A DNA stretch of 64,000 nt from Candidatus Micrarchaeota archaeon (GCA_016212395.1 JACRGF010000048.1:10759-74758); one strand, 5' to 3'. Positions 16,329 through 59,769 are shown, counted from the stretch's first letter. The notes: generated by a model not told the origin, from the sequence alone. Program-made: numbers and translations.

Positions 16329-16362
16329 CATTCGACCGAAGACTCGCATTTCTCGTCATTCG

Positions 16363-16508
16363 GTCGACACAGTCGACTGCGGTCGACTTGTCGACATTTC
16401 GACTGCAGTCGAAATCGTCGAATACTCGAGCGACAAAACCGTCGGAGCGGTTTTGTGCTCCACAAGAGCGATGCATCGCTCTTGTCGGACAAGTCAGCGT
16501 AGACTTGT
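16363..16508 (+). repeat. cluster of six short perfect hairpins (GTCGAC type and ACAA...TTGT type)
   Basis: GTCGAC-ACA-GTCGAC; ATTTCGACTGCAGTCGAAAT; ACAAAACCG/CGGTTTTGT; ACAAGAGCGATGCATCGCTCTTGT; ACAAGTC/GACTTGT. Confidence 0.7.
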
Positions 16509-16524
16509 CGATGCTAAAATTAAT

Positions 16525-16640
16525 GCGGCTGTAGTCTAGCCTGGTAGGACTCGAGGTTGCCAATCTCGTAACCCGGGTTCAAACACCCGTCGCTGAAGCA
16601 ACGCGCTTTCAGCAACGTGCTGAAAATCCCGGCGGCCGCA
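16525..16640 (+). tRNA. tRNA-Gly(GCC) with ~43-nt intron in the T-loop (exons 16525-16583 and 16627-16640)
   Basis: Hand-folded cloverleaf: acceptor GCGGCUG/CGGCCGC, anticodon loop UUGCCAA, T-stem CCGGG/CCCGG split after UUCAAA; no encoded CCA. Confidence 0.85.
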
Positions 16641-16668
16641 TAACTTCGTGGTTTTCAGTCTTCTGTCT

Positions 16669-16728
16669 CCAACAAGTCAGACGCATCTGACTTGTGGACC
16701 ACAAGTTCGTAACGACGAACTTGTCGGT
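16669..16728 (+). repeat. two tandem CCA(A)CAA...TTGTGG hairpins
   Basis: CCAACAAGTCAGA-CGCA-TCTGACTTGTGG and ACCACAAGTTCGT-AACG-ACGAACTTGTCGGT. Confidence 0.7.
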
Positions 16729-16785
16729 TCAGTTTTGAAAGGCAAAAAAACGGAAAACGCAATACAGAAAACGGAAAACTGAAAA

Positions 16786-16869
16786 TCCCGGCGACCGCAA
16801 TTTTTTTAACGCGGTTGTAGTCTAGCCTGGTAGGACTTTGGCCTTCCAAGCCAATGACCCGGGTTCAAA
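16786..16869 (+). tRNA. tRNA-Gly(UCC), 3'-piece-first gene (circularly permuted or split): nt 60-73 at 16786-16799, 11-nt linker, nt 1-59 at 16811-16869
   Basis: The 5' piece folds to position 59 (anticodon loop CUUCCAA) and then diverges. The upstream UCCCGGCGACCGCA completes the T-stem and acceptor stem, including U5-A68. Confidence 0.75.
16801..16807 (+). terminator. T7 tract immediately after the 3' piece of tRNA-Gly(UCC)
   Basis: GCGACCGCA-A-TTTTTTT; oligo-T is the archaeal termination signal. Confidence 0.4.
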
Positions 16870-16998
16870 TGACCTTTTTTCTTTCTTTTTCTCTCTGAAA
16901 AAGAAAGAAAAAACCTCAACAACCAACAAAAGCGATGTGTCGCTTTTGCGGTCCACAAATTCGATTCGTCGAATTTGTTGGAAAAAAGAAAGAAAAAA
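16870..16998 (+). repeat. structured intron-like module flanking the 5' piece of tRNA-Gly(UCC)
   Basis: Y-run/R-run hairpin (16875-16913), then two ACAA hairpins, then a polypurine run. Same architecture as intron 18535-18676. Confidence 0.65.
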
Positions 16999-17008
16999 GC
17001 AAAAAAAT

Positions 17009-18336: not shown

Positions 18337-18430
18337 ACTGCAATTATTACATTCTCAAACAACAAACAATACGAACAATAAAGAATATAAAAATGAGAAA
18401 CACAAAAATAAAAACAGAAACAACTGAAAA

Positions 18431-18720
18431 TCCCGGCGACCGCATGATTTTTTTGTGGTTCTCGGTTTTGAGTCAACAGTTTTGGAAACCCCAAAACTGA
18501 AAACTCGAAACTCGACACTGCGGTTGTAGTCTAGTAACCTTTCTTTTTTCTTTTTCGAGTAGAAAAAGAAAAAAGAAACGTTAACGACCAACAAAAGCGA
18601 CGCATCGCTTTTGTGGTCCACAAAAACGTCACGACGTTTTTGTTGGAAAGAAAAAAGAAAAAGAAAGGTTGGACATCTTGGTAGGACATGGGCTTCCCAA
18701 GCCTATAACCCGGGTTCAAA
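18431..18720 (+). tRNA. tRNA-Gly(CCC), 3'-piece-first gene with an extra D-loop intron: nt 60-73 at 18431-18444; nt 1-15 at 18520-18534; intron 18535-18676; nt 16-59 at 18677-18720
   Basis: Pieces sum to 59+14 nt; anticodon loop UUCCCAA; acceptor GCGGUUG/CGACCGC; the D-loop intron forms a BHB (GUCU/GGAC helix flanked by AG|U and AU|C bulges). Confidence 0.75.
18448..18454 (+). terminator. T7 tract immediately after the 3' piece of tRNA-Gly(CCC)
   Basis: GCGACCGCA-TGA-TTTTTTT. Confidence 0.4.
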
Positions 18721-18722
18721 AT

Positions 18723-18770
18723 AAAGTTTTTTCTTTCTTTTCGGCGATCCGAAAAGAAAGAAAAAACTTT
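18723..18770 (+). repeat. perfect 22-bp polypyrimidine/polypurine hairpin directly after the 5' piece of tRNA-Gly(CCC)
   Basis: AAAGTTTTTTCTTTCTTTTCGG-CGAT-CCGAAAAGAAAGAAAAAACTTT. Confidence 0.8.
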
Positions 18771-18894
18771 AATGAAAAAAGAAAGAAAAGAAGAACGAGA
18801 AAAGAAAAAGAGGTACTAAAAGAAAGAAAAGAAAAAAGAAAGAAAAAAAGAAACGCTGAAAAAAAGAAAAAAGAATTAGGAACTGCTTGTTTTT

Positions 18895-22795: not shown

Positions 22796-22958
22796 CCAAC
22801 AGGGGTTTAAAAAGGGAAAAAAAGGAGAGGAAAAACAAACTGAAGGAAAAAGAAAAAAAAACAACGAGTGGAATTCAGAAAAAGAAAGAAAAAAACGAAT
22901 GAGAAAAGAATAGAAAAATTAGAAAAAAAAGAAAGGAAAAAAAGAGGGAATTGCAAGG

Positions 22959-33292: not shown

Positions 33293-33567
33293 TATTCTCA
33301 CCTCGAAAAAAGGTTTCATCGAACTGCAGTCTCACTAAAAACAGTTCAAAGAAGAAAAACACTTTTGCTGAAACAAATTTAAAAGCGTTCGCATTCAACG
33401 CGCAACACGCGACAGGAAAAAACAGGGAAAAAAATTAACTTGCTTCAAAGAAAAAAAACGATTGAAAAAAAATGCTTTAGAAAAAAAACGATTAGAGGAA
33501 AAAAAATTCAAGACGTTTATTTCAATGCGAGAAAAAAAATAATGCTGCAGCTAATTTGTTTTCTTTT

Positions 33568-41532: not shown

Positions 41533-41835
41533 GTGGTGATTGATTTGTTGGACGAGCAGAGTTTGCTTATGCACGAGCTTATCGGATTGCACGCGCGCGT
41601 TGTTGAAAGCAACGTGAAGCAATTCGTTGGAATCAAGGGAATGATTGTTGACGAGACGAAAAATATGCTCGTGTTTGAAGCTGGAGACAAGGAAAAACGC
41701 GTTCCGAAAAAAGCGTGCGTGTTTGAATTTGTTTTGCCGGACGGAAAAAAAGCAGTCGTGAACGGAGAAAAAATCGCTTTCGCGCCCGAAGAACGGCCGA
41801 AGAAACTGTGGAGAAGCATTGGAAAAGAAAAATGA
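41533..41835 (+). CDS. rnp1: RNase P protein component 1 (Rpp29/Pop4)
   Basis: LIGLHARVVESNVKQFVGIKGMIVDETKNMLVF; GTG start uncertain. Confidence 0.85.
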   Translation: MVIDLLDEQSLLMHELIGLHARVVESNVKQFVGIKGMIVDETKNMLVFEAGDKEKRVPKKACVFEFVLPDGKKAVVNGEKIAFAPEERPKKLWRSIGKEK

Positions 41836-58817: not shown

Positions 58818-59603
58818 ATGAGTTTTGAGAGGGTTGATACGATGGAGGAAATGCTTGTACCGCAGGAAAAATACTTGGAAGCAGGAATACACATTGGAAC
58901 AAAGCTGAAAACGTCTGACATGATACAGTATATTTACAAGGCACGCCAGGACAAATTGTACGTGCTTGACTTGAAGAAAACTGACGAGAAAATAAGGCTT
59001 GCGGCGAGGTTTATTTCGCGTTACAAGCCTGAAGACGTGCTCATTGTCGCGTCTAGAACGTACGCAAGCAACGCGAGCAAAACGTTCTGCAAGACTACGA
59101 GTTGCAGGCAGCTGGCAGGAAGATTCGTGCCAGGCATTCTGACAAACCCGGCGAGGGAAAGCTTCATAGAGCCGAAGCTAGTGATAGTTTCAGACCCGAA
59201 GGGAGAACGGCAGGCGATAAGGGAAGCCGCAAAGTCAGGCATTCCGGTAATCGCGTTGTGCGACACGGACAACACGACGAAGTTCATTGACTTGATAGTG
59301 CCGTGCAACAACAAAGGCAAAAAATCTTTAGCGCTCGTTTTCTACCTGCTCGCGCGCGAAGTGCTTAAAGCAAAGGGAGAAATACAAACAGACGCAGAGT
59401 TTAAGACAAGCCTTGCGGAATTCGAGGAAGACGTTATTCTCGAAGAAGAAAACGCCGAACCTGCTGTTGATGCGGTAGAGGATTCTGCTCCGGCAGAAGC
59501 TGTTGCTGAACAACCGGCTGAAGAGCAGGAAGCGAAAAAACCGCGCAAGAAAAAGAAGGAAAAGAAAGAAGGCGAATCTGCTGAAGAAGCACCAGCACAG
59601 TAA
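58818..59603 (+). CDS. rps2: ribosomal protein uS2 with acidic/K-rich C-terminal tail
   Basis: [16 protein letters not shown]; start uncertain (58809 TTG, 58818 or 58842 ATG). Confidence 0.9.
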
Positions 59604-59769
59604 AAAAAAAAACGCGGAACAGAAAACGCTGAAGAACACGCAAAGCTGGAAAAAAAAGAAAAACGCGCGGAGAAATGTTTTCAAGAGTTAGCGGGAGCAC
59701 AAAAAAACGAGTGGGTGTTTTCGGGTGGGTTTAGAACTGCTCGCGTATATTTTTTGCGGTTTTATTTTT

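What the first reader, a model, noticed from the sequence alone, without database searches (positions are those of the whole stretch)
16741..17000. tRNA-Gly(UCC) gene with its 3' piece encoded upstream of its 5' piece (permuted or split)
What the sequence shows:
- 16811-16869 is exactly nt 1-59 of a tRNA-Gly (anticodon loop CUUCCAA). It ends in GGGUUCAAA and then runs into unrelated sequence.
- No matching 3' end lies downstream.
- The missing nt 60-73 (UCCCGGCGACCGCA) lies 11 nt upstream, at 16786-16799.
- That piece completes the T-stem and the acceptor stem GCGGUUG/CGACCGC. Its A68 pairs with U5, unlike the neighbouring GCC gene, which has G68 opposite C5.
- It is preceded by CUGAAAA, the same 3' splice context as the cis introns.
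- The break point is identical to the intron site of the GCC gene 170 bp away.

The upstream flank (two ACAA hairpins plus a polypurine run) and the downstream flank (polypyrimidine run, hairpins, polypurine run) look like the two halves of one intron. That fits the tandem-duplication model for the origin of permuted tRNA genes.

Permuted tRNA genes are established in Cyanidioschyzon merolae and a few archaea (Thermofilum). Split tRNAs are established in Nanoarchaeum and Caldivirga.

One puzzle remains. The 11-nt linker is A-T7-AAC, a potential archaeal terminator, which would favour two transcripts joined in trans.
Basis: partly seen in the sequence, partly recalled or inferred. Interest (0 to 1): 0.9.

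Follow-up and report, generated by a model that had tools for sequence, protein, structure and literature searches.

The report
Permuted tRNA-Gly genes in Micrarchaeota
In this tiny uncultured archaeon (Micrarchaeota) the last 14 bases of two glycine tRNA genes are encoded just upstream of the first 59 bases, an arrangement conserved with matching mutations in related genomes, which adds a new archaeal phylum to the very few organisms known to build tRNAs from back-to-front genes.

Summary
Bases 16811-16869 are nt 1-59 of tRNA-Gly(UCC), and nt 60-73 lie 11 nt upstream at 16786-16799, preceded by CTGAAAA. Rejoined, they give a tRNA that ARAGORN accepts. The window is from a Candidatus Micrarchaeota genome (DPANN archaea). 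It has an identical 3' piece, a 75-nt linker and a 142-nt D-loop insert.

The order is conserved in three other lineages (L001/L002, L005, L096). All fall in one clade on a neighbouring-kinase tree, while sister lineages have the same genes cis-spliced at 59/60. The acceptor stem joining 5' piece to upstream 3' piece is 100% paired, and 3 of 7 pairs change on both sides. This is therefore neither a misassembly nor a relic.

Most likely these are circularly permuted tRNA genes, like those of Thermofilum pendens and Cyanidioschyzon merolae, processed through a relaxed bulge-helix-bulge motif.

Whether the T7 linker stops transcription remains open. Against two transcripts:
- 5 of 7 permuted 5' pieces have no promoter-like box.
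- L096 has no T-run.
- T6-T8 runs occur inside genes and cis introns.

For it: T6-T8 follows the 3' piece in 6 of 7 cases.

I found no published report for Micrarchaeota. This is a new member of a known kind.

The parts
16525..16583 (+). tRNA-Gly(GCC) exon 1 (nt 1-59), cis-spliced neighbour
   Evidence: Sequence. Rfam tRNA partial hit at 28.3 bits. The rejoined sequence is called tRNA-Gly(gcc).
16584..16626 (+). GCC cis intron, 43 nt, at 59/60, ending CTGAAAA
   Evidence: The same junction TGAAAA|TCCCGG is found in about 28 cis introns of other Micrarchaeota.
16627..16640 (+). GCC exon 2 (nt 60-73). No T-run follows it.
16666..16727 (+). ACAA double-hairpin module between the GCC gene and the UCC leader
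   Evidence: 25 pairs, 11 of them with compensatory changes across copies.
16732..16751 (+). Weak AT-rich boxes (TTTTGAAA, CAAAAAAAC) 35-53 nt upstream of the 3' piece. Possible promoter; inferred only.
   Evidence: Comparable boxes lie at -47..-32 upstream of the 3' pieces of window CCC, L005 CCC and L001 UCC.
16752..16785 (+). UCC leader, purine-rich. TGAA at 16780-16783 pairs with T-loop TTCA. AA at 16784-16785 plus T60 form the 3-nt bulge at the 3' splice site.
   Evidence: Co-fold. CTGAAAA is conserved in all permuted and cis cases.
16786..16799 (+). tRNA-Gly(UCC) 3' piece, nt 60-73 (TCCCGGCGACCGCA)
16800..16810 (+). Intervening sequence (linker) A-T7-AAC, joining A73 to G1
   Evidence: A T6-T8 run follows the 3' piece in 6 of 7 permuted genes.
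16811..16869 (+). tRNA-Gly(UCC) 5' piece, nt 1-59. TTCA at 16864-16867 is the central-helix strand. AA at 16868-16869 precedes the 5' splice site.
   Evidence: (Rfam tRNA 24.4 bits, partial).
16870..16918 (+). UCC trailer: TGAcc + 17-bp polypyrimidine/polypurine hairpin (16875-16913) + ccTCA. Contains a T6 five nt after the splice site.
   Evidence: self-fold -20.1 kcal/mol. The layout matches the 5' part of the L011 UCC cis intron.
16920..16998 (+). Trailer continuation: ACAA double-hairpin module (16920-16981) and distal polypurine run (16982-16998)
   Evidence: The same module order occurs inside the CCC D-loop insert.
18384..18393 (+). AATATAAAAA box 38-47 nt upstream of the CCC 3' piece; promoter-like
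   Evidence: Conserved in L005 and L004, and farther upstream in L001.
18431..18444 (+). tRNA-Gly(CCC) 3' piece, identical to the UCC 3' piece and preceded by CTGAAAA
18445..18519 (+). CCC intervening sequence, 75 nt, with T7 at 18448-18454. No AT-rich box at promoter distance from G1.
18520..18534 (+). tRNA-Gly(CCC) nt 1-15
18535..18676 (+). 142-nt insert in the CCC D-loop (Y-run/R-run hairpin, ACAA double hairpin 18585-18646, distal R-run). The boundary is ambiguous by 1 nt.
   Evidence: The orthologs in L001 and L005 lack it.
18677..18720 (+). tRNA-Gly(CCC) nt 16-59
18721..18771 (+). CCC trailer: self-folding polypyrimidine/polypurine hairpin
   Evidence: -28.7 kcal/mol.

Best explanation
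These are functional, circularly permuted tRNA-Gly genes: UCC at 16786-16869 and CCC at 18431-18720.

Proposed pathway:
1. One precursor is transcribed in the order leader, 3' piece (nt 60-73), linker, 5' piece (nt 1-59), trailer.
2. The 3' piece pairs with the 5' piece through the acceptor stem (7 bp) and the T-stem (5 bp).
3. The leader's TGAA pairs with T-loop TTCA (nt 54-57). This makes the 4-bp central helix of a relaxed bulge-helix-bulge (hBH) motif.
4. The 3' cut falls in a 3-nt bulge (AA|U60). The 5' cut falls after A59, next to a self-folding trailer hairpin.
5. The broad-specificity splicing endonuclease cuts both sites and the RNA ligase joins A59 to U60, giving a circular intermediate.
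6. RNase P and tRNase Z remove the linker, and CCA is added.

Shown: the gene order, its conservation, the covariation of the two pieces, and the predicted hBH pairing.
Inferred: the single transcript, the circle, and the enzymes.

The stated confidence is for the full single-transcript mechanism. I put 'functional tRNA gene in permuted order', by either route, at about 0.9.
For: Anatomy and function:
- Anatomy confirmed.
- Rejoined sequences are called tRNA-Gly with the correct anticodons.
- The co-fold gives acceptor stem, T-stem, UUCA/UGAA helix and the AAU bulge.

Conservation:
- Seven permuted tRNA-Gly genes in four lineages, from independent assemblies.
- Acceptor helix 100% paired, with 3 of 7 pairs changed on both sides; 0 of 500 shuffles reach the score.
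- In L001 each 5' piece matches its upstream 3' piece 7/7. The GCC 5' piece matches the downstream piece only 6/7 (sequences; the pairing is my own count by hand).

Single transcript:
- Ordinary Micrarchaeota tRNA-Gly-type genes have an AT box at -36..-28 (100% A/T at -31; 16 of 22 pass the box test). Five of seven permuted 5' pieces have none, including both in this window. The two positives are the TTGAAAAT splice motif itself.
- Linkers of 11-20 nt leave no room for a promoter.
- AT boxes lie at -47..-32 upstream of the 3' pieces.
- L096 has a 51-nt linker with no T-run and a strict motif with a 9-bp leader-trailer helix (-18 kcal/mol).

T-runs are read through elsewhere:
- T8 inside NucS and T7 twice inside a FlaJ-like gene.
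- T6-T8 inside cis tRNA introns of L049, L086, L087 and L011.
- T6 inside the window's own CCC D-loop insert.

Enzymes and precedent:
- The RNase P subunit Rpp29 is encoded in the window.
- ARMAN-2 (Micrarchaeum) has a broad-specificity epsilon2 endonuclease that cuts relaxed hBH motifs, and has a 59/60 intron (PMC3239211).
- T. pendens and C. merolae permuted genes share the 59/60 junction (PMC3218864).
Against: - A T6-T8 run begins within 0-3 nt of A73 in 6 of 7 permuted genes. It is as long as or longer than the T-runs after the 5' pieces.
- T-runs of 7 or more are about 10 times denser in intergenic DNA than on the sense strand of ORFs. T5-T7 also follows ordinary Micrarchaeota tRNA genes. 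So the run looks like a terminator.
- In known permuted genes, no termination signal lies in the intervening sequence (PMC3978253).
- In this window leader and trailer barely pair (-7.4 and -6.2 kcal/mol) while the trailers self-fold. The motif is therefore only the relaxed type.
- The promoter upstream of the UCC 3' piece is weak. The cis GCC gene also lacks a promoter box, so absence of a box is not fully diagnostic.
- No RNA data are available. The rest of the genome could not be searched for a conventional tRNA-Gly(UCC).
Confidence: 0.6

Rival explanations
1. Adjacent split tRNA in reverse order. The T-run ends a short RNA (leader + 14-nt 3' piece). The 5' piece is made as a second RNA. 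The two anneal through the acceptor stem, T-stem and TGAA/TTCA helix and are trans-spliced. Because the UCC and CCC 3' pieces are identical, either short RNA could serve either 5' piece. A mixed mode is possible, in which some transcripts terminate and some read through.
For: - T6-T8 directly after A73 in 6 of 7 cases.
- T-runs are enriched in intergenic DNA and follow ordinary tRNA genes in the phylum.
- Identical 21-mer CTGAAAATCCCGGCGACCGCA at both loci.
- 16 bp of inter-piece pairing would hold two RNAs together.
- Adjacent split halves are known in Aeropyrum pernix (PMC3218864).
Against: - No AT box at promoter distance upstream of 5 of 7 5' pieces, including both 75-nt linkers and the 51-nt one.
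- 11-20-nt linkers cannot hold a promoter.
- L096 has no T-run.
- T6-T8 runs are tolerated inside genes and cis introns.
- The window lacks the long GC-rich leader-trailer helix typical of split tRNAs.
Confidence: 0.3
2. The UCC 5' piece uses a different 3' piece. One option is the GCC exon 2 at 16627, giving U5.G68 and U6.G67 wobbles. The other is the identical 14-mer at 18431, across a 1.56-kb spacer. On this reading the piece at 16786 is a redundant duplicate.
For: GCGGTTG can pair 7/7 with CGGCCGC if two G.U pairs are allowed (my reading). The piece at 18431 is identical to the one at 16786.
Against: - It would leave CCC, or another gene, without a partner. There are three 3' pieces for three 5' parts.
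- In L005 and L001 the CCC gene has only the upstream piece available.
- The dedicated piece keeps a Watson-Crick U5-A68 and covaries with its 5' piece across lineages.
Confidence: 0.05
3. A non-functional relic or an assembly artefact: fragments left by a rearrangement, or a chimeric join, with the working tRNA-Gly(UCC) encoded elsewhere.
For: This is a metagenome-assembled genome. Standard tools do not call the gene. The rest of the genome was not searchable.
Against: - The same order appears in four lineages and at least five independent assemblies.
- The cloverleaf is fully intact and the acceptor changes are compensatory.
- The splice motif is conserved.
- In L001 all three Gly isoacceptors are permuted, and no conventional tRNA is called in 18.9 kb.
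Confidence: 0.03

Closest known systems
[quoted passage not shown]
   Same: Archaeal. The 3' part lies directly upstream of the 5' part on the same strand. The junction is at 59/60. The promoter lies upstream of the 3' part. A further intron can sit in the 5' part, as the window's CCC gene has in its D-loop.
   Different: - Crenarchaeota versus Micrarchaeota (DPANN).
- Linkers of 1 and 7 nt versus 11-75 nt.
- CCA is encoded there but not here.
- The paper's text reports no T-run in the linker.
- There two unrelated isotypes are involved. Here up to all three isoacceptors of one amino acid are, conserved across a clade.
Type IV (59/60) permuted tRNA genes of Cyanidioschyzon merolae (Soma et al. 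2007; review PMC3978253)
   Same: Same junction. A 14-nt 3' part. Intervening sequences of 7-74 nt. A circular intermediate model with removal of the linker by RNase P and tRNase Z. CCA is not encoded.
   Different: Eukaryotic nucleus and RNA polymerase III. No termination signal in the intervening sequence there, whereas T6-T8 is present here in 6 of 7 cases.
[quoted passage not shown]
   Same: The two pieces lie next to each other on one strand. It is possibly an evolutionary intermediate between cis and trans splicing.
   Different: There the order is normal (5' then 3'), the split is at 37/38, a strong promoter lies between the halves, and a 14-bp GC-rich helix joins them. Here the order is reversed, no promoter-like box lies between the pieces, and the leader-trailer pairing in the window is weak.
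Tri-split tRNA-Gly of Caldivirga maquilingensis (Fujishima et al. 2009, listed; details from my own knowledge)
   Same: tRNA-Gly(UCC) and tRNA-Gly(CCC) with identical terminal pieces that could in principle be shared.
   Different: There the pieces are dispersed and transcribed separately. Here each gene keeps its own adjacent copy.
59/60 introns with a relaxed hBH motif in ARMAN-2 (Candidatus Micrarchaeum acidiphilum) and its epsilon2 endonuclease (PMC3239211)
   Same: Same phylum, same intron site and the same relaxed motif class. These features probably make the permuted form processable.
   Different: Those genes are cis-spliced. No permuted or split gene was reported there.

Membership tests
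Circularly permuted tRNA gene | The 3' part is encoded upstream of the 5' part, on the same strand and adjacent | tested here: met
   11-nt (UCC) and 75-nt (CCC) linkers.
Circularly permuted tRNA gene | The parts rejoin into a canonical cloverleaf with a complementary acceptor stem | tested here: met
   (ARAGORN calls tRNA-Gly tcc and ccc); 100% paired, with 3 acceptor pairs covarying.
Circularly permuted tRNA gene | A bulge-helix-bulge or relaxed BHB motif forms at the junction from leader, trailer and exon ends | tested here: met
   relaxed hBH in the window (T-stem, AAU bulge, UUCA/UGAA helix); strict motif with a 9-bp leader-trailer helix in L096.
Circularly permuted tRNA gene | A single transcription unit: promoter upstream of the 3' part, and no promoter or terminator in the intervening sequence | tested here: inconclusive
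   No promoter-like box before 5 of 7 5' pieces. AT boxes lie upstream of the 3' pieces. But a T6-T8 run lies in the linker in 6 of 7 cases. T-runs are tolerated elsewhere.
Circularly permuted tRNA gene | A circular RNA intermediate, and a mature tRNA carrying the 59|60 junction | not testable with these tools
   No RNA data are available. The RNase P subunit Rpp29 gene is present.
Split (trans-spliced) tRNA gene | Each piece has its own promoter | tested here: not met
   no AT box at -42..-24 before the window's UCC and CCC 5' pieces, or before L001 GCC, L005 CCC and L096 UCC. This is a sequence-based inference only.
Split (trans-spliced) tRNA gene | A long complementary leader-trailer helix next to the BHB motif | tested here: not met
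   -7.4 and -6.2 kcal/mol in the window, where the trailers self-fold instead. L096 does have 9 bp.
Split (trans-spliced) tRNA gene | A terminator after the first-encoded piece | tested here: met
   T7 after both 3' pieces in the window.
Archaeal non-canonical tRNA intron at 59/60 (the neighbouring GCC gene) | The intron lies between nt 59 and 60 with a relaxed BHB motif, and the exons rejoin into a cloverleaf | tested here: met
   The same junction occurs in about 28 Micrarchaeota cis introns.

The most novel reading that the evidence does not exclude
The conserved T6-T8 run is a working but leaky terminator, so one promoter yields two products: short RNAs (leader plus 14-nt 3' piece) and full-length permuted precursors. 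The identical UCC and CCC 3' pieces would then be used both in cis (through a circle) and in trans (split mode). That would make this the first organism in which permuted and split tRNA maturation coexist at one locus. It would also be a living intermediate between cis-spliced, permuted and split tRNA genes.
Probability: 0.2. Interest if true: 0.85.

Novelty: new member of a known kind. Interest (0 to 1): 0.62.

Why it matters
- Permuted tRNA genes are known from a handful of algae and, in the papers I could search, one archaeon (two genes in T. pendens). As late as 2021 they were described only from Crenarchaeota and Nanoarchaeota.
- Here a clade of DPANN archaea carries them for up to all three glycine isoacceptors. 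Sister lineages still have the same genes, in the same genomic position, with ordinary 59/60 introns or uninterrupted.
- That gives a natural series: intact, then cis-intron, then permuted. With it, the origin of permuted genes (tandem duplication and loss of the outer halves, intron remnants becoming leader and trailer) can be tested by comparative genomics.
- It also explains 'missing' tRNAs in DPANN genome annotations. ARAGORN and Rfam see none of these genes.
- The terminator-like T-run in the linker offers a direct experimental handle on whether the permuted and split routes can overlap.

Tried and rejected
- Close relatives of the neighbouring kinase in GTDB representative genomes by peptide patterns: none found.
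- Exact-sequence look-up of the window's own proteins: not on record. The rest of the MAG could therefore not be searched for another tRNA-Gly(UCC).
- Metagenome scan for '3' piece, 1-30 nt, tRNA 5' start': 76 hits. All are ordinary intact tandem tRNA-Gly(GCC)/tRNA-Gly(UCC) genes 2-10 nt apart, probably methanogens, and none is permuted. This is a useful control but no new cases. Linkers longer than 30 nt were not covered.
- Genome scan for TGAAAATCCCGGNNNCCGCA: roughly 70 of the hits are chance matches in bacteria, as expected for 17 specified bases in 596 Gb. Only the Micrarchaeota and other archaeal hits were used.
- Leader polypurine pairing with trailer polypyrimidine as the inner BHB helix: rejected for this window. 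The duplex is weak, and the trailers fold on themselves.
- The linker's T-run plus A's as a TATA box for the 5' piece: rejected. It lies at -10 to -4, whereas the box of ordinary genes is at -36 to -28.
- Integrative-element att duplication as the source of the repeated 3' piece: rejected. The kinase between the two copies is syntenic across the phylum.
It overlaps the NucS gene, so I treat it as spurious.
- ARAGORN's intact call in L096 (6831-6903) is a forced fit. Its acceptor pairs 5/7, against 7/7 with the upstream piece.
- Rfam miRNA and sRNA hits at 16875-16913 and 18722-18771 are just the AT-rich hairpins.

Full report
**What is in the sequence.**
- Bases 16811-16869 are nt 1-59 of a tRNA-Gly with anticodon UCC. 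The stretch ends GGGTTCAAA and runs into unrelated sequence.
- The missing nt 60-73 (TCCCGGCGACCGCA) lie at 16786-16799. They are separated from G1 by the 11-nt linker ATTTTTTTAAC and preceded by CTGAAAA.
- Rejoined, the 73 nt fold as a cloverleaf, and ARAGORN calls them tRNA-Gly(tcc).
- In their genomic order neither ARAGORN nor Rfam at gathering threshold reports the gene. Rfam gives only a partial 24.4-bit tRNA hit on the 5' piece.
- The neighbouring tRNA-Gly(GCC) is cis-spliced at the same site. Its correct coordinates are 16525-16583, intron 16584-16626, and 16627-16640.
- The 11-mer CTGAAAATCCC occurs exactly three times in the window. Each copy lies at a tRNA-Gly 3' splice site.

- An identical 14-mer lies at 18431-18444, again after CTGAAAA and again followed by a T7 run.
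- It is followed by a 75-nt linker and then by tRNA-Gly(CCC) nt 1-59 at 18520-18720.
- That 5' part is itself interrupted in the D-loop by a 142-nt insert at 18535-18676. The rejoined sequence is called tRNA-Gly(ccc).
- A permissive Rfam scan of all 64 kb finds no other tRNA. The window's only tRNA genes are therefore three glycine isoacceptors, two of them back-to-front.

**Organism.**
- The flanking genes are archaeal: isoleucyl-tRNA synthetase, ABCE1/RLI, aIF5B, a FlaI-type ATPase, SecY and an ADP-dependent sugar kinase.
- The kinase is 100% identical to a protein of a Candidatus Micrarchaeota MAG with locus tag HY992_04795.
- Micrarchaeota belong to the DPANN archaea. ARMAN-2 (Micrarchaeum) is already known to have many non-canonical tRNA introns, including a 59/60 intron with a relaxed 'hBH' motif. 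It also has an epsilon2 endonuclease of broad specificity (PMC3239211).

**Conservation and covariation.**
- The syntenic relative L001 (GCA_053535415.1; kinase 64% identical; same IleRS, transglutaminase-like gene, tRNAs, kinase, tRNA order) has all three tRNA-Gly genes with the 3' piece upstream. Its linkers are 75, 14 and 14 nt.
- An independent assembly, L002, repeats this arrangement.
- L005 (kinase 66% identical) has a permuted CCC with a 20-nt linker.
- L096, a GC-rich Micrarchaeia MAG (kinase 40% identical), has GCC cis-spliced and then UCC permuted, just as in the window. Its linker is 51 nt.
- Across the seven permuted genes there are four different acceptor stems: GCGGTTG/CGACCGC, GCGGCCG/CGGCCGC, GCGGCGG/CCGCCGC and GCGGCGA/TCGCCGC. 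Each 5' piece is perfectly matched by the 3' piece upstream of it.
- Formally, the acceptor helix is 100% paired and 3 of its 7 pairs change on both sides. No shuffle of 500 reaches the observed covariation score.
- In L001 the GCC 5' piece pairs 7/7 with its upstream piece but only 6/7 with the piece downstream of it. This is my own hand count on the sequences.
- Together these results exclude misassembly and decay.

**Evolutionary setting.**
- A scan of reference genomes for the 3' splice junction returned about 30 Micrarchaeota loci above roughly 70 chance hits in bacteria.
- Almost all of those loci are cis introns of 25-290 nt at 59/60, ending TGAAAA|TCCCGG.
- The kinase/tRNA-Gly synteny is old. 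L011, L073 and L079 have a cis-spliced Gly gene at the UCC position. L117 and L049 have one at the CCC position. L073 also has an uninterrupted GCC gene.
- On a neighbour-joining kinase tree, the four lineages with permuted genes form one clade and the cis-spliced loci lie outside it. This rests on a single protein and is only indicative.
- The window's UCC trailer reads tgacc-T6CT3CT5C-loop-GA5GA3GA6, followed later by a second purine run. This is the same layout as the 5' part of the cis intron of the L011 UCC ortholog.
- This fits an origin by duplication and loss of the outer halves, with intron remnants becoming leader and trailer.
- The metagenome scan for '3' piece, short linker, tRNA start' returned only intact, tightly packed tandem GCC-UCC genes. 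An array of intron-containing tandem genes is one deletion at each end away from a row of permuted genes. That is what L001 looks like.

**How it most likely works.**
- Co-folding the 5' piece plus trailer with the leader plus 3' piece gives four elements: the acceptor stem, the T-stem, a 4-bp helix between T-loop UUCA and leader UGAA, and a 3-nt bulge AA|U60.
- The 5' cut after A59 lies next to a trailer that folds on itself (-20.1 and -28.7 kcal/mol).
- Leader-trailer pairing in the window is weak (-7.4 and -6.2 kcal/mol).
- This is the relaxed hBH class. L096, by contrast, has a strict motif with a 9-bp leader-trailer helix (-18 kcal/mol).
- Endonuclease cleavage and ligation would join A59 to U60.
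- If both pieces are on one RNA, the product is a circle. RNase P and tRNase Z then open it at the linker. The window encodes the RNase P subunit Rpp29. CCA is not encoded.

**One transcript or two?**

For two:
- A T6-T8 run begins 0-3 nt after A73 in 6 of 7 permuted genes. It is at least as long as the T-runs after the 5' pieces.
- T-runs of 7 or more are about 10 times denser in intergenic DNA than on the sense strand of ORFs.
- Ordinary Micrarchaeota tRNA genes end with such runs.
- Known permuted genes have no termination signal in the intervening sequence (PMC3978253).

For one:
- Twenty-two ordinary tRNA-Gly-type genes of the phylum show an AT-rich box at -36 to -28 (100% A/T at -31), and 16 of the 22 pass the box test. 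Five of seven permuted 5' pieces have none, including the cases with 51- and 75-nt linkers. The two 'positives' are the splice motif TTGAAAAT itself.
- Linkers of 11-20 nt cannot hold a promoter.
- AT boxes lie 32-47 nt upstream of several 3' pieces, notably AATATAAAAA at 18384-18393, which is conserved in L005.
- L096 has no T-run at all.
- T-runs are demonstrably read through elsewhere. There is a T8 inside NucS and T7 twice inside a FlaJ-like gene. T6-T8 runs lie inside cis tRNA introns of L049, L086, L087 and L011. A T6 lies inside the window's own CCC D-loop insert.

I therefore favour a single, possibly leaky, transcription unit (0.6) over obligate trans-splicing (0.3). Only RNA data can decide.

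**Comparison with what is known.**
- The closest matches are the permuted tRNA-iMet and tRNA-Tyr of Thermofilum pendens and the type IV permuted genes of Cyanidioschyzon merolae. Both are broken at 59/60.
- The differences here are the phylum, the conserved T-run in the linker, and the relaxed motif with a self-folding trailer. In addition, a whole isoacceptor family is involved across a clade.
- Literature searches found no report of permuted or split tRNAs in Micrarchaeota or ARMAN. tRNAscan-SE 2.0 (2021) lists such genes only for Crenarchaeota and Nanoarchaeota. A 2018 paper notes incomplete tRNA sets in DPANN genomes and suspects undetected disrupted genes (PMC5829648). The library I could search is incomplete.

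**Verdict.** This is a new member of a known kind: circularly permuted tRNA genes, now in DPANN archaea. The open mechanistic question is the T-run. Interest 0.62.

Noticed in passing
window 18431-18771 (+): A second permuted gene, tRNA-Gly(CCC). Its 3' piece is identical to the UCC one. It has a 75-nt linker with a T7 run, and its 5' part is interrupted in the D-loop by a 142-nt insert (18535-18676) that the L001 and L005 orthologs lack. The insert's 3' end repeats the exon sequence GGACAT, so the splice point is ambiguous by about 1 nt.
   Followed up: yes
window 16666-16727, 16920-16981, 18585-18646 (variant copy about 16455-16515); L001 about 9083-9025 and 7417-7359 (minus strand): A 62-nt double-hairpin module (CCAACAA..TTGTGG-N-CCACAA..TTGTYGG) with conserved ends and covarying stems (25 pairs, 11 compensatory). 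In the window it occurs only around the tRNA-Gly pieces and inside the CCC D-loop insert, usually bracketed by a polypyrimidine run and matching polypurine runs. Its function is unknown. It may be a mobile or intron-derived structured element.
   Followed up: partly
window 16329-16524 and 16641-16665: The cis-spliced GCC gene has no AT-rich promoter box at the usual -36..-28 and no T-run after its 3' end. Its upstream spacer is packed with GTCGAC-type hairpins. The tRNA cluster may be co-transcribed with the upstream IleRS and transglutaminase-like genes. This gene order is conserved in L001.
   Followed up: partly
window 18448-18470 and 16641-16665; L001 linker about 9378-9355 (minus strand): A shared motif GTGGTYYTCRGTYT follows the 3' end of three tRNA-Gly 3' pieces: the window's GCC flank, the window's CCC linker and L001's GCC linker. 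The long linkers therefore begin with what looks like the ordinary 3' flank of the gene, as a tandem-duplication origin predicts.
   Followed up: no
L065 110-230 (+); L124 about 4795-4560 (minus strand): Two other Micrarchaeota loci carry two or three tandem copies of a tRNA 3' exon (TCCCGGCTGCCGCA; TCCCGGCATCCGCA) about 85 nt apart, downstream of a cis-spliced gene. These may be duplication intermediates or remnants of integration sites.
   Followed up: no
L011 about 3648-3476 (minus strand): The cis-spliced UCC ortholog appears to have its T-loop broken twice. The 5' exon ends at GGGT, and an isolated TTCAAAT lies near the intron's 3' end. This resembles the two adjacent T-loop introns described in ARMAN-2 tRNA-Pro.
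   Followed up: no
window 41533-41835 (+): The RNase P/MRP subunit p29 (Rpp29) is encoded between SUI1 and S17 in the ribosomal-protein operon (E=5.7e-24). This organism therefore appears to have RNase P, unlike Nanoarchaeum.
   Followed up: yes
window 18721-18890, 22810-22945, 33425-33540, 59600-59710: Long purine-rich (GAAA-type) tracts with many A7-A11 runs fill several intergenic regions on the + strand. The whole window is purine-skewed on the + strand.
   Followed up: no
L001, L002, L005 (whole loci); L096 6831-6903: ARAGORN finds none of the permuted genes. In L096 it forces an 'intact' tRNA-Gly by borrowing trailer sequence (acceptor 5/7). Automatic annotation of these genomes will miss or mis-call these tRNAs.
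   Followed up: yes
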